Shown here: piece after piece, positions 37,801 through 40,800 of the stretch | How the letters are laid out: every line of letters begins with the position of its first letter | Numbering within the stretch: position 1 is the stretch's first letter | IMG/VR virus record: IMGVR_UViG_2703718775_000013 | Strand: one strand, 5' to 3' | From: a virus | Taxonomy: Duplodnaviria > Heunggongvirae > Uroviricota > Caudoviricetes | Length of the DNA: 64,000 bases | Program-made: the position numbers

Positions 37801-40800
37801 CTTCAATCACCGCTGCAAAATCACCGCATACAAACTCAGACCGCCCTTCCGCACCGAGGAAGGCTTCCATCTCCTGTAATGGGAAATACGGAGTTTTATA
37901 CTTCCCATAACCGACATTGAACTCACCGGCCTGGTTGTAACGCGTCAATCCGTTAAAACAATGTCGGTTCAGGAACAAAAACGCCGCTGCGCGATGTAAA
38001 TCATCATAGACTTGTTTGTTAAACGCATTCCGTACTGCCAGGTATCCTTCCTGTGTGTTGTAGTCCTGGAAGAAACGATGTGCCAGAGTGATAAGTGAAT
38101 GCGCCTCGCGTTGCAGAGTCTTGTAAAAGTTAATCAGGTCAGCATTCACATCATTTAGCAGATTTTCCTGGTATCCGGCATTCATGAAGACAGCTCCGCC
38201 ACCAACGAAAGGTTCAATCAGGCGCTTCCCTTCTGGCAAATAGCGAAAGATTTGTTCCAGAACACCAAATTTTCCACCAGCCCATTTGAATATGGACCGT
38301 TCGAATTCTGCCGCTGGTTTAACTTTTCGCTCTTTTGTTTCACTTCCTTCTTTCTGCCGACATACGGCCTTAGTAATCCGATCGCCAATCCAGCGCATTA
38401 CTGGTATTGCCATACTATTGCCGATCGCTTTGTAACGCGGTCCGTCAGCTGCAAGCATTGCGGCCTCTTCTTCGCTTAAATCTGGATAGTGATTGTGCAG
38501 ATATGCCAGTTCATCTGAATTAACTTTTTTACGCTTTTCCGTAGGGATCAACGTATGCCAATCAGGAAAACCTTGCAGCCTTTCACATTCGACAGGGGTA
38601 AGACGGCGCATTCTACCGTCGCCGAGCAATACAATTGGTGCTTCATGGTTACATGTCAAAGTTGGTGCCGAATTATCGGTTTTTATCTCAGCCCCTCCTT
38701 GCCCATGTGCCATGGCAATTATGTTTGTATCATCGCAAGTTCTGATAGCGATGTTTGAAGTATATCTGGTAGTTTCCTTCCCCTCGCCTCTGCTCGGCGC
38801 AATATTCCGGCGCACGCCTTCGAACTCAAAAAGTACCGTTGCGGGATCGAGATCTGTTCGAGCACTTGCGACAACAAACACGCGTCGGCGTCGTTGTGCC
38901 ACTCCGAAGTATTGGGCATCAAGGATTCTCCAGGCCACTTTTCGCTGCGGTCCATAAATACAACCACACTGCGGCCACTTTGGAACATGGCAACCGGTTT
39001 TGCCATCCCACCGCCAGAACGCGTTGCTTTTTCCTGATTCAGGTCGATCACCTGGTTCAAATGGCACATCTTCTCCAGCCAATCCGGCAAGGAAACATCC
39101 GAAGGCGTTATCTGCCGATGACAAGACTCCTGGGACATTTTCCCAGACGATAACGGCTGGTTTGAGAAATGACTCAGCCCGTTTGTCGTCAATTGCATTT
39201 GCAAGCTCCACATACTTTAAAGTTAGCGCGCCACGCTCATCATCAAGCCCACCACGTAATCCCGCGATACTGAATGCCTGACAGTTATGGACCACCGCAC
39301 CATTGAGGATATAGGAATGATCACCTTCGACTTCTATGTTGTATACAGTATCTAGGCCTACCGATTTAAACTCTTTGACTGTTCGTAAAAGCATTCCATG
39401 AGCCAATCTTGATTTACGTGACAATTTCTGCGGGCAGATTGTTACCTGATAATAATTCCGTTGATTTACCACGCGATCCTCGATCACTTTTTTGGGCTCA
39501 ACTTCAATAAAGCTGACCGAAGAAACATAACCACAAGTCTGTGACAACCCCGCAACGCCCCAAGCAAGCGCAGAACTAACACTATTAATTCTAAATCCCG
39601 CTTTACCACTTGGTGTCCCATCAGTATCAAGATAGCCTTGTAAAAACACATGACGCAATGGATGCGACATCACCCATGCAGGGATACGCTTAGCATGGCT
39701 TAACTCGCCAAAATGTTCATTAAGCCAATTGGCATAACACGTATCATTCAAGGTTACTTTGATGCTCCCTCGGATTTCGCTTGCCACGGAAAATATGTTT
39801 TCTGGTATGCGGCAATGAAACTTTCTCAATTTCTGGCAATTTATGCCAAAAACAACCGCCTTCTTAGATTTACCTCTCCATCTCCTAATATATCCATCGC
39901 CAACATAAGCGCCCGCAAGATACATAGCCTGTTCTTCAGACAAGAACCGAGAACAAATATCTGGAAATGCAATATTGAAATTAGTTAGAGCGCACCATTG
40001 ATATCCCGGCATATCACATGCTGCTCGCCATTCCGGTTCAGACAACAACTCTCTCTTAAAATATGTGCCATTTTTCCGGGTGTTTTGGGCTTTCCACCGA
40101 ACAGCCAGGAAGGGATGGTCATTGGTTGTTCTTATACCTAAAGGCTGCCCAACGGCATTAAGTAACCCCGTATTAGCTATTTTTGAACCAACTCTTTTTA
40201 CTTGTTGTAACCGCCCGAGATGACTGACTACGTAATCACCAGGGCAAACATTTTCTATTGGTTTATAGCCATTTTTACAAAGAACCATATGCCCCGCGGT
40301 AAAACATGGTGTTCCCCCGACGAGCACGTCAGGGGATTCGATTTCCCCAGCCAAGACTTTTTTGGCAAGTTTTTTCATGTCGCCAAGGTTGGCAACATGG
40401 GGCCAGCGGAGCGCAAGAACGGCCGATGGAAAAGGCTCGATTTCAGCAAACCACGCCGGACGCATACCCAACGGTTCCCAGGCAATACTCGCGGCTTCAA
40501 TTCCACTGCAAACAGATCCATAGCACAGCTCTTTCACTGCTTAGCCTCTCCGCCAAGGGCATTTACCAGAGCATCAACCAGGCACGAAATTTCACTGGTC
40601 AACAGGAAGAAATCTGCGTCCAGTCGCTGCGCAACATCTTCACTATCAATATCAGAGTTCTGCTCAAGCAATTCATCCGCAAATTTGACGCTGGTAAGGC
40701 TGAAGTTATGGTCCAGTGTAAATTTAATGCGGTTCTGCCAGTCGAGTGCCAACTTAGTGACGAGCTTGCCAGCTTCCAGGTGTGTGGAAATTTCATCGCT

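What the first reader, a model, noticed from the sequence alone, without database searches (positions are those of the whole stretch)
39284..40306. LAGLIDADG intein inserted at the catalytic cysteine of the phage C5-cytosine methyltransferase
The 1013-aa dmt ORF carries a 341-aa in-frame insertion with all intein hallmarks: Cys1 (CFTAGHMVLC), TNDH block B, two LAGLIDADG motifs, C-terminal NGAVVHN, and a +1 Cys. Removing it rejoins GGTP to CQAFSIAG, recreating the canonical PCQ catalytic motif, so the catalytic cysteine is also the splice nucleophile. I am not aware of an intein in P1 Dmt; the methyltransferase would be active only after splicing.
Basis: seen in the sequence. Interest (0 to 1): 0.7.

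Follow-up and report, generated by a model that had tools for sequence, protein, structure and literature searches.

The report
Homing intein splitting P1-family Dmt methyltransferase
The DNA methyltransferase gene of this P1-like phage-plasmid is interrupted, exactly at the catalytic cysteine of its cytosine-methylase half, by a complete self-splicing intein with a built-in homing endonuclease; it is a textbook kind of selfish element, but nobody has annotated it and it sits in about a quarter of P1-like elements, including a laboratory P1vir stock.

Summary
ORF 37496..40537 (-) is a 1013-aa P1-type Dmt, a C5-cytosine methyltransferase fused to Dam. It carries a 341-aa in-frame insert at 39284..40306. 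Phage P7 Dam and reference P1 Dmt lack exactly this insert and read GGTP|CQAFSIAG without interruption.

The insert has every class-1 intein residue: Cys1, T61/H64, D329, H340-N341 and +1 Cys. It also has two LAGLIDADG motifs with their catalytic Asp residues. Its predicted fold (pLDDT 91.6) matches PI-SceI and other endonuclease-bearing inteins (E 3e-17). The +1 Cys aligns with the M.HhaI nucleophile Cys81.

About 26% of P1-like plasmids in PLSDB and 2.8% of complete E. coli genomes carry it, always in dmt and always named only "Dam family methyltransferase".

Its synonymous diversity is 6-7 times lower than that of the flanking dmt sequence. Its distribution on the dmt tree is patchy. One silent flanking base (CCA versus CCT) tracks intein presence perfectly. 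All this fits recent horizontal spread.

Related inteins occupy the same P|C site in C5-methylases of many bacteria and phages, and inteins in phage C-5 methylases have been reported. So this is a new, unannotated member of a known kind. Splicing and homing are inferred, not shown. Only the C5 half, not the Dam half, should need splicing.

The parts
37496..40537 (-). dmt precursor ORF (1013 aa; GTG start overlapping the end of hrdC): C5-cytosine methyltransferase domain, interrupted by the intein, fused to a Dam N6-adenine methyltransferase domain
   Evidence: 99% identical to Dmt of OP279344. The exact protein is found on at least 1000 public contigs.
40307..40537 (-). N-extein (aa 1-77), ending ...DVLVGGTP; holds C5-methyltransferase motif I (SVCSGIEAAS)
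   Evidence: Pro-1 codon is CCA in all intein-bearing alleles and CCT in all intein-free alleles.
39284..40306 (-). Intein, 341 aa, 38.3 kDa, pI 9.4; Hint splicing domain (about aa 1-110 and 272-341) with a nested LAGLIDADG endonuclease (about aa 120-268)
   Evidence: GC 42.7% versus 54.5% and 48.4% in the flanking exteins.
40247..40306 (-). Intein block A with Cys1 (CFTAGHMVLCKNGYKPIENV)
   Evidence: Cys1 is conserved in all 15 relatives of 32-61% identity.
40103..40138 (-). Intein block B (GIRTTNDHPFLA; T61 and H64 form the TxxH motif)
39887..39925 (-). LAGLIDADG motif 1 (MYLAGAYVGDGYI; catalytic Asp137)
39611..39649 (-). LAGLIDADG motif 2 (VFLQGYLDTDGTP; catalytic Asp229)
   Evidence: Pfam LAGLIDADG_3
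39284..39352 (-). Intein blocks F and G (DTVYNIEVEGDHSYILNGAVVHN; D329, H340, terminal Asn341)
   Evidence: TIGR01443; alignment to Spl DnaX mini-intein
39281..39283 (-). +1 Cys codon (TGT): splice-junction nucleophile and catalytic Cys of C5-methyltransferase motif IV (PCQ)
   Evidence: Aligns with M.HhaI Cys81; contiguous with Pro77 in intein-free alleles
38333..39283 (-). C-extein part 1: rest of the C5-methyltransferase domain (motif IV onward, ENV motif VI, variable target-recognition block about 38606..38794, motifs IX and X)
   Evidence: Pfam PF00145 and TIGR00675; M.HhaI alignment; variation in target-recognition block length
37511..38302 (-). C-extein part 2: Dam-family N6-adenine methyltransferase domain, uninterrupted
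   Evidence: PF02086 at 1.9e-56, TIGR00571 at 6.4e-74
41788..41804 (-). C1 repressor operator (Odmt / Op(dam)) upstream of the uhr-hrdC-dmt operon; exact match to the annotated P7 operator

Best explanation
This is a class-1 intein carrying a nested LAGLIDADG homing endonuclease. It is inserted between Pro77 and the catalytic Cys of motif IV (PCQ) in the N-terminal C5-cytosine methyltransferase domain of a P1-family Dmt. The gene lies in the C1-repressed uhr-hrdC-dmt operon, so it should be made during lytic growth or derepression as a 113-kDa precursor. Inferred mechanism: Cys1 performs an N-S acyl shift at the Pro77-Cys78 bond. The +1 Cys, which is the future methyltransferase nucleophile, takes over the N-extein by trans-thioesterification. 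Asn341 cyclises and releases the 38.3-kDa intein, and an S-N shift leaves a 74.7-kDa Dmt with an intact GGTPCQAFS active site. Until then the C5 domain cannot work, while the Dam domain in the C-extein is physically intact. The released intein is predicted to cut intein-free dmt alleles at the sequence ...GGAACACCT|TGTCAGGCATTCAG... when two P1-like genomes meet in one cell. Repair then copies the intein in, together with at least the adjacent silent base. What is shown: the anatomy, the intein-free alleles, the fold, residue conservation and the population pattern. What is inferred: splicing, endonuclease activity and homing.
For: Anatomy: precise 341-aa indel against P7 Dam and P1 Dmt, rejoining GGTP|CQAFSIAG. 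All splicing residues and both LAGLIDADG Asp residues are present, and all are retained in 15 relatives of 32-61% identity. In those relatives the endonuclease domain is only slightly less conserved than the Hint domain (39-48% against 50-61%, taking the 14 relatives above 40% overall; the most distant one, L142, is 32% against 41%). The AF2 model has pLDDT 91.6. Foldseek top hits are PI-SceI, TliVMA, PI-PfuI and PI-PkoII, followed by the free LAGLIDADG enzymes I-SceI and I-DmoI. The +1 Cys aligns with M.HhaI Cys81. Population: in PLSDB, 497 plasmids hold the dmt 5' region; 363 are uninterrupted and about 129 are interrupted at nt 231/232 by the intein. It is in 152 of 5426 complete E. coli genomes, always under a dmt-type gene. 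The intein is 98.5-100% identical across E. coli, E. albertii, E. fergusonii, Salmonella and Shigella. In the same alleles the N-extein differs by up to 9.5%. Synonymous diversity is 0.017 in the intein against 0.119 (N-extein), 0.047 (first 489 nt of the C-extein) and 0.104 (Dam). The intein ORF is intact in all 11 alleles examined, with piN/piS 0.27. Intein state needs at least 3-6 changes on dmt trees, and all four gametes occur with sites only 21-24 nt downstream. The intein occurs with three different variants of the target-recognition block. The silent -1 base is A in 40 of 40 intein-bearing junctions and T in 39 of 39 intein-free junctions. GC is 42.7% against 48-54% in the flanks. The C1 operator upstream is conserved. 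A replicating lab P1vir carries the intein, so the interrupted gene is compatible with a viable phage.
Against: No experiment shows splicing or cleavage. Intein-free alleles whose target matches the intein-bearing flanks except at the -1 base still make up about 73% of plasmids. So either homing is inefficient, or encounters are rare because of plasmid incompatibility and immunity, or the endonuclease is weak or inactive. Low diversity of the intein could also come from ordinary recombination in a highly mosaic gene; hrdC upstream is also low in diversity (pi 0.011). My sample for the diversity and tree tests is small (19 alleles) and chosen by hand. A Pro at position -1 is, from my own knowledge of engineered inteins, unfavourable for the first acyl shift. 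Here it is conserved in the whole same-site family, which argues that the family copes with it. C5 methylation by Dmt is itself only 'perhaps' in the P1 annotation.
Confidence: 0.85

Rival explanations
1. A splicing-competent intein whose endonuclease no longer homes. It persists by vertical descent and moves between dmt backgrounds only by general homologous recombination among mosaic P1-like genomes.
For: About 73% of P1-like plasmids remain intein-free, and many have a target identical to the intein-bearing flanks except for one silent base. dmt is visibly mosaic, with four target-recognition variants and incongruent trees for the N, C and Dam segments. Intein piN/piS is 0.27, somewhat higher than 0.13-0.21 in the exteins. 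Segregating changes are 12 non-synonymous against 11 synonymous.
Against: Both catalytic Asp residues and the whole endonuclease domain are intact in all alleles and conserved in relatives down to 32% identity. A mini-intein at the same site (P0019) shows that the endonuclease domain can be lost when not needed. Synonymous diversity is 6-7 times lower than in the immediate flanks.
Confidence: 0.3
2. The insert is not removed. It is a permanent domain of a variant Dmt, for example a DNA-binding module, and the C5 domain in these alleles is simply dead while Dam still works.
For: The Dam domain is what P1 is known to need (pac methylation). C5 activity of Dmt is only 'perhaps' in the annotation. 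No splicing data exist.
Against: All eight splicing and endonuclease key residues are conserved across the family. The C5 extein flanks remain under purifying selection in intein-bearing alleles, with piN/piS 0.13-0.17, as in intein-free ones. The insertion is exactly at a nucleophilic Cys, as inteins require.
Confidence: 0.03
3. Beyond being selfish, the intein acts as a conditional switch (redox, metal or temperature dependent) that delays or gates cytosine methylation by Dmt during P1 development.
For: The insertion at the catalytic Cys makes C5 activity strictly dependent on splicing. Cys1 and Cys+1, plus 10 further Cys residues in the intein, could in principle form regulatory disulfides, as described for other inteins (titles, for example the DnaB intein as oxidative stress sensor). 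The -1 Pro could slow the first step.
Against: Nothing in the sequence specifically demands it. Insertion at active-site nucleophiles is the general habit of inteins. 73% of relatives do without the intein.
Confidence: 0.1

Closest known systems
PI-SceI (Saccharomyces VMA1 intein) and archaeal VMA, PI-PfuI and PI-PkoII inteins
   Same: Same two-domain architecture: a Hint splicing domain with a nested double-motif LAGLIDADG endonuclease, Cys1, terminal HN and +1 Cys. These are the best structural matches to the model (E 3e-17 to 1.5e-9).
   Different: Only 10-17% sequence identity. Different host proteins (ATPase, ribonucleotide reductase, polymerase) and different domains of life. At 341 aa this one is smaller than PI-SceI, whose solved chains are about 394-448 residues (the full intein is 454 aa, from my own knowledge), and it appears to lack the large extra DNA-recognition region.
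Same-site inteins in other C5-cytosine methyltransferases (unnamed; e.g. Metarhizobium album L022, Mannheimia haemolytica P0010, many IMG/VR phage contigs, Chloroflexota, Flavobacteriales and Clostridia MAGs)
   Same: Inserted at the identical position, GG[TFS]P|C...HN|C[QT], of motif IV. They are 26-55% identical over the full length with all key residues conserved. This is the allelic family to which the P1 intein belongs.
   Different: Their host methylases are mostly stand-alone C5 enzymes, not Dmt-type C5-Dam fusions. Some are mini-inteins (P0019), some degenerate (L064, 6 stops), and some sit in a truncated extein (P0010, L135).
Inteins in actinobacteriophage DNA methylases (Kelley et al. 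2016, PMC5050341; Gogarten lab 2023, PMC9957025; bioRxiv 10.1101/2025.01.02.630785)
   Same: Phage-borne inteins interrupting DNA methyltransferases, with patchy distribution and horizontal transfer between divergent methylases. The 2025 survey lists C-5 methylase (IPR001525) among invaded proteins.
   Different: The best-described cases are N6/N4 methylases. The hosts are Actinobacteria phages. The texts I could read neither give the C-5 insertion site nor mention any P1-family or enterobacterial case.
Homing-endonuclease group I introns of phage genes (e.g. T4 td/I-TevI, from my own knowledge)
   Same: The same selfish logic: an endonuclease cuts the empty allele during mixed infection, and repair copies the element with co-conversion of flanking markers.
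   Different: Those are removed at the RNA level. This one is removed at the protein level and uses the host enzyme's own catalytic cysteine.

Membership tests
Intein (class 1 protein-splicing element, Hint fold) | Nucleophile (Cys/Ser) at intein position 1 | tested here: met
   Cys78 of the ORF is intein Cys1. Conserved in 15 of 15 relatives.
Intein (class 1 protein-splicing element, Hint fold) | Block B TxxH motif | tested here: met
   T61-N-D-H64. Conserved in 15 of 15 relatives.
Intein (class 1 protein-splicing element, Hint fold) | Block F Asp, and block G penultimate His plus terminal Asn | tested here: met
   D329, H340, N341. TIGR01443 at 28.9 bits against a cut-off of 15.6.
Intein (class 1 protein-splicing element, Hint fold) | Cys/Ser/Thr as the first C-extein residue | tested here: met
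   Cys419 (CQAFSIAG).
Intein (class 1 protein-splicing element, Hint fold) | In-frame insertion absent from orthologues; removal restores a conserved host motif | tested here: met
   P7 Dam and P1 Dmt read GGTPCQAFSIAG without it. 363 PLSDB plasmids and 31 IMG/VR contigs have the uninterrupted junction.
Intein (class 1 protein-splicing element, Hint fold) | Hint (horseshoe beta) fold | tested here: met
   AF2 model with pLDDT 91.6. Foldseek matches full-length inteins and the Prp8 mini-intein. This is a prediction, not a solved structure.
Intein (class 1 protein-splicing element, Hint fold) | Autocatalytic excision with ligation of the exteins | not testable with these tools
   Needs expression with Western blot or mass spectrometry.
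LAGLIDADG homing endonuclease (double-motif, monomeric) | Two LAGLIDADG helices, each ending in a catalytic acidic residue | tested here: met
   YLAGAYVGD137G and FLQGYLDTD229G. Both Asp residues conserved in 15 of 15 relatives. PF14528 at 30.2 bits against 22.5.
LAGLIDADG homing endonuclease (double-motif, monomeric) | Two-fold pseudo-symmetric alpha-beta-beta-alpha-beta-beta-alpha core | tested here: met
   Model secondary structure for aa 124-267. Foldseek hits to I-SceI, I-DmoI, I-OnuI and I-AniI.
LAGLIDADG homing endonuclease (double-motif, monomeric) | Site-specific double-strand cleavage of the element-free allele | not testable with these tools
   Candidate target: GTCGGGGGAACACCT|TGTCAGGCATTCAGTATCGC.
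LAGLIDADG homing endonuclease (double-motif, monomeric) | Population signature of mobility: patchy distribution, element younger than its flanks, co-converted flank | tested here: met
   piS 0.017 against 0.10-0.12 in the flanks. At least 3-6 state changes on dmt trees, and four gametes at +21/+24. The -1 A/T base is perfectly linked. Small hand-picked sample; general recombination is not excluded.
C5-cytosine DNA methyltransferase (PF00145), the host domain | Motif IV PCQ with the catalytic Cys, restored after removal of the insert | tested here: met
   The spliced sequence aligns with M.HhaI ...GFPCQAFSISG..., with Cys on Cys81. PF00145 at 7.3e-30 in four stretches.
C5-cytosine DNA methyltransferase (PF00145), the host domain | Motif VI ENV and C-terminal motifs IX and X | tested here: met
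   VWENVPGVL, RRLTPVECERLQGFP and YKAIGNSMAIPV aligned with M.HhaI.
C5-cytosine DNA methyltransferase (PF00145), the host domain | Demonstrated m5C methylation activity and target sequence | not testable with these tools
   The P1 and P7 annotations say only 'perhaps at C5 cytosine'.
Same-site ('motif IV P|C') C5-methylase intein family | Identical insertion point and full-length homology to the other members | tested here: met
   At least 23 genome loci and at least 25 viral loci show ...P|CF..G...HN|C[QT]... in C5-methylases, at 26-55% identity.

The most novel reading that the evidence does not exclude
The intein is an active gene drive now sweeping through the P1 family of phage-plasmids (about 26% so far). 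Its splicing, which must break an unusual Pro-Cys bond and uses the methylase's own catalytic cysteine, is rate-limiting or condition-dependent. It would therefore time or gate cytosine methylation (anti-restriction) separately from the always-available Dam activity of the same polypeptide.
Probability: 0.12. Interest if true: 0.7.

Novelty: new member of a known kind. Interest (0 to 1): 0.45.

Why it matters
P1 is one of the most used phages in bacterial genetics, and P1-like phage-plasmids are common carriers of resistance genes. Yet the exact protein here, found on at least 1000 public contigs, is named only 'Dam family methyltransferase'. Recognising the intein has four consequences.

(1) It corrects the annotation and the expected size of Dmt: 113 kDa precursor, 74.7 kDa mature protein and a 38.3-kDa endonuclease.

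(2) It shows that about 3% of complete E. coli genomes carry a natural intein. This is relevant to people who use E. coli as an 'intein-free' host.

(3) It offers a very tractable system for watching intein homing. A lab P1vir stock carries the intein, while reference P1 c1-100 and P7 are natural empty targets.

(4) It provides a potentially new LAGLIDADG specificity and an intein that naturally splices after a -1 proline.

It does not change any concept: inteins at active-site nucleophiles of phage DNA-metabolism enzymes are the rule.

Tried and rejected
They combined intein with dmt, P1, P1-like, cytosine methyltransferase, C5-cytosine and cytosine-specific. None found a description of an intein in P1-family Dmt. 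The nearest item is a 2025 preprint listing C-5 methylase among intein-invaded actinophage proteins. The text of Novikova et al. 2015 has no methylase mention and its supplements are not held. Gilcrease and Casjens 2018 is not held.

Sequence-only search of the PDB gave just weak hits (E 0.0015 to Spl DnaX mini-intein), so a fold search was needed. Pfam Intein_splicing (18 bits against 35.8) and Hint_2 (28.2 against 28.4) are below their cut-offs, so I did not rely on them.

I considered whether an internal late promoter could express Dam separately. The LPdam2 predicted in P7 has 2 mismatches in the window and is itself only a prediction, so I dropped it.

I considered the -1 Pro as a unique oddity. 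Other intein families retrieved here also have Pro at -1 (L042, L043, L078), so it is notable but not unique.

I considered ectopic copies in other E. coli genes. All 153 E. coli records have the intein under a dmt-type gene, 5 of them on chromosomes.
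Full report
WHAT IS THERE. The window encodes, on the minus strand at 37496..40537, a 1013-aa ORF. Pfam and NCBIfam identify it as a fusion. A C5-cytosine methyltransferase (PF00145, 7.3e-30, matched in four separate stretches) is followed by a Dam-family N6-adenine methyltransferase (PF02086 at 1.9e-56; TIGR00571 at 6.4e-74, aa 748-1007). It is the dmt gene of a P1-like phage-plasmid. The neighbours are hrdC/rdgC upstream and a tRNA-Asn/Tyr/Thr cluster downstream. The annotated C1 operator of the uhr-hrdC-dmt operon is present unchanged at 41804..41788.

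THE OBSERVATION. In a five-way alignment, P7 Dam (672 aa) and reference P1 Dmt (754 aa) lack precisely these 341 columns and read ...DVLVGGTP-CQAFSIAGLRGG... without interruption. A lab P1 (OP279344) and phage Ro157c2YLVW carry the insert.

- Cys1 (CFTAGHMVLC).
- Block B TTNDH (T61, H64).
- LAGLIDADG motif 1, YLAGAYVGD137GY.
- LAGLIDADG motif 2, FLQGYLDTD229GT.
- Block F, VYNIEVEGD329HSY.
- Block G, NGAVVH340N341, followed by Cys.

Profile support comes from LAGLIDADG_3 (30.2 bits, cut-off 22.5) and the TIGR01443 intein C-terminal region (28.9 bits, cut-off 15.6). Hint_2 (28.2 against 28.4) and Intein_splicing fall below their cut-offs. An AlphaFold2 model built on ten family members is confident (pLDDT 91.6, pTM 0.88). 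Its best PDB matches are full-length endonuclease-bearing inteins: PI-SceI at 3.2e-17, TliVMA at 6.2e-17, PI-PfuI at 3.2e-11 and PI-PkoII at 1.5e-9. Free LAGLIDADG enzymes (I-SceI, I-DmoI, I-OnuI) follow.

The spliced sequence aligns with M.HhaI as DVLVGGTPCQAFSIAG over DILCAGFPCQAFSISG. This puts the +1 Cys on Cys81, the established catalytic nucleophile of that enzyme (the role of Cys81 is textbook knowledge).

HOW COMMON IT IS, AND WHETHER IT IS ANNOTATED. The intein DNA is found in 5 phage records: P1 isolate OP279344, RCS47 twice and Ro157c2YLVW twice. It is in 129 PLSDB plasmids of E. coli, E. albertii, E. fergusonii, Salmonella and Shigella. It is in 152 of 5426 complete E. coli genomes, always under a dmt-type gene, with 148 places on plasmids and 5 on chromosomes.

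A 700-nt query made of the spliced junction finds 497 plasmids. Of these, 363 are uninterrupted, and the interrupted ones break exactly at nt 231/232. About 26% of P1-like plasmids therefore carry the intein.

Annotations call the gene 'Dmt', 'DNA methyltransferase' or 'Dam family site-specific DNA-(adenine-N6)-methyltransferase'. None mentions an intein. The exact protein of this window is on at least 1000 public contigs under that Dam name.

OP279344 is the genome of a laboratory P1vir stock used in Argonaute work. A lytic, fully viable P1 thus carries the interrupted gene.

Ten full-text searches found no paper describing an intein in P1-family Dmt. The closest literature is on inteins in actinobacteriophage DNA methylases: the N6/N4 type in PMC5050341 and PMC9957025, and a 2025 preprint that lists C-5 methylase (IPR001525) among invaded proteins without giving the site.

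EVIDENCE ON MOBILITY. I compared 11 intein-bearing and 8 intein-free dmt loci. This is a small, hand-picked sample, and ordinary recombination in a mosaic gene could contribute to the patterns below.
- The intein is 98.5-100% identical everywhere. The N-exteins of the same alleles differ by up to 9.5% and the Dam region by up to 9.4%.
- Synonymous diversity is 0.017 in the intein. It is 0.119 in the N-extein, 0.047 in the first 489 nt of the C-extein and 0.104 in the Dam region.
- The intein ORF is intact in all 11 alleles, with piN/piS of 0.27.
- On neighbour-joining trees of the flanks, the intein state needs at least 3 changes (immediate flanks), 6 (Dam region) or 5 (all segments together).
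- All four combinations of intein state and allele occur at sites only 21 and 24 nt downstream of the junction.
- The intein is found with three of the four length variants of the methylase's target-recognition region: 672, 754 and 807-aa exteins.
- One silent base is perfectly linked. The Pro-1 codon is CCA in all intein-bearing junctions (11 loci plus 29 IMG/VR loci) and CCT in all intein-free junctions (8 loci plus 31 IMG/VR loci).
- GC content is 42.7% in the intein against 54.5% and 48.4% in the flanking exteins.

Together these fit an element of foreign origin that entered diverged dmt alleles recently, bringing at least the adjacent base with it.

THE WIDER FAMILY. A protein search with the intein alone returned only C5-methylase-embedded relatives, at 47-52% and then 29-32% identity. 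In every one the intein sits at ...TP|C or ...FP|C and is followed by CQ or CT of motif IV.

A scan of one genome per species found the same arrangement in Metarhizobium album (48%), Chloroflexota, Limnocylindrales, Flavobacteriales, Clostridia, Actinomycetota, Mesorhizobium, a Neisseria MAG, Campylobacterota and others. More distant relatives sit in SufB, ribonucleotide reductase and other classic intein hosts. In IMG/VR, 205 viral stretches encode relatives. Those of 28-55% identity that I inspected are again mostly at the same site.

Fifteen relatives of 32-61% identity all keep C1, T61, H64, D137, D229, D329, H340 and N341. Their endonuclease domain is only moderately less conserved than the splicing domain: 39-48% against 50-61% in the 14 closer relatives, and 32% against 41% in the most distant one. 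This argues that endonuclease function has been maintained in the lineage. A mini-intein (P0019), a decayed copy with 6 stops (L064) and copies in a truncated host gene (P0010, L135) show the usual intein life cycle.

MECHANISM. The steps are inferred from the established class-1 intein pathway:
- Transcription comes from the C1-controlled operon during lytic growth.
- Translation gives a 113-kDa precursor.
- Cys1 performs an N-S acyl shift at the Pro77-Cys78 bond.
- The N-extein is transferred to Cys419.
- Asn418 (intein N341) cyclises.
- An S-N shift yields a 74.7-kDa Dmt with GGTPCQAFS restored, plus a free, basic (pI 9.4), 38.3-kDa endonuclease.

The C5 domain cannot be active before splicing, because its catalytic loop is split. 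Dam activity is the function P1 is known to need, for pac methylation. C5 activity is only 'perhaps' in the P1 and P7 records.

The endonuclease is predicted to cut the empty site GTCGGGGGAACACCT|TGTCAGGCATTCAG when intein-bearing and intein-free genomes share a cell.

RIVALS.
(a) A splicing-competent intein with a dead or weak endonuclease, spread by general recombination. It is supported by the persistence of perfect empty targets in about 73% of elements, and by a somewhat relaxed piN/piS. It is opposed by the intact and conserved endonuclease. I give it about 0.3.
(b) A non-spliced permanent domain. This is very unlikely given the full conservation of splicing residues and continued purifying selection on the C5 exteins.
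(c) A regulatory, conditional intein. This is possible in addition to the selfish role, but nothing specific supports it.

VERDICT. This is an ordinary kind of element (an intein with a LAGLIDADG endonuclease at an active-site cysteine of a phage DNA-metabolism enzyme) and a member of a widespread same-site family. It is unannotated and, as far as I could find, undescribed in the P1 family, where it is frequent and experimentally very accessible. Novelty: new member of a known kind. Interest is moderate (0.45).

Noticed in passing
window 38606..38794 (-), inside dmt; compare L003, L004, L009, L012: The region between the conserved C5-methyltransferase motifs is modular; it is presumably the target-recognition domain. 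Extein lengths of 672, 754, 807 and 862 aa occur in different P1-like elements, with unrelated sequence in the block. All combinations with intein presence or absence were seen except the 862-aa variant with the intein. This suggests swapping of cytosine-methylation specificity among P1-like phages.
   Followed up: partly
window 36577..36823 (-) and 34556..34631 (-): tRNA-Asn, tRNA-Tyr and tRNA-Thr cluster just downstream of dmt, plus a tRNA-Met(cat) further on. The reference P1 and P7 annotations show only Asn and Thr here. Ro157c2YLVW has the extra tRNA-Tyr, like this window.
   Followed up: no
window 41788..41804 (-) and 37489..37505 (-): Exact copy of the C1 repressor operator annotated upstream of uhr-hrdC-dmt in P7 and P1, and a one-mismatch operator at the 3' end of dmt (the Oban position). 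The intein-bearing gene is therefore under immunity control.
   Followed up: partly
P0010 (Mannheimia haemolytica, seen on 578 contigs); L135/L136 (IMG/VR): A 47-48% identical intein at the same site, but the host C5-methylase reading frame stops 20 aa after the intein (CQSDKGGTVKASGGGFEWRE*). An apparently intact intein sits in a truncated or decayed host gene that is widespread in that species.
   Followed up: no
L019 (E. fergusonii pTB31P2, NZ_CP070953.1), locus 2501-2820: dmt is cut off 320 nt into the intein by an IS1 element followed by unrelated genes. This is an example of loss of the whole gene in a P1-derived plasmid.
   Followed up: no
L013 (E. coli O145 p2RM9154-C1), locus 2021-3234: An IS3-family transposase is inserted between hrdC/rdgC and an intein-free dmt.
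   Followed up: no
P0019 (306-aa fragment, NCBI source): A mini-intein of about 150 aa, without an endonuclease domain, at the same GGTP|C...HN|CQDLSIAG site of another C5-methylase. It shows that the endonuclease can be lost in this family.
   Followed up: no
L001 (OP279344.1, 'P1 isolate del res del mod'): A laboratory P1vir stock is 88.4 kb and described as lacking res and mod. It carries the intein and the short target-recognition variant, so it differs from the reference P1 c1-100 mod749::IS5 at dmt. Lab 'P1' stocks are evidently not uniform at this locus.
   Followed up: partly
H119 (NZ_CP027223.1) 35242-36263: The intein match spans 1022 instead of 1023 bases at 99.9% identity. This means a 1-nt deletion that would frameshift the intein and dmt, or a sequencing error. 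Not examined.
   Followed up: no
L085 (Candidatus Peribacteria MAG) and L064 (Ruminococcus MAG): Same-site C5-methylase inteins containing many in-frame stops under translation table 11 (21 and 6). The first may reflect an alternative genetic code in that lineage; the second looks like decay.
   Followed up: no
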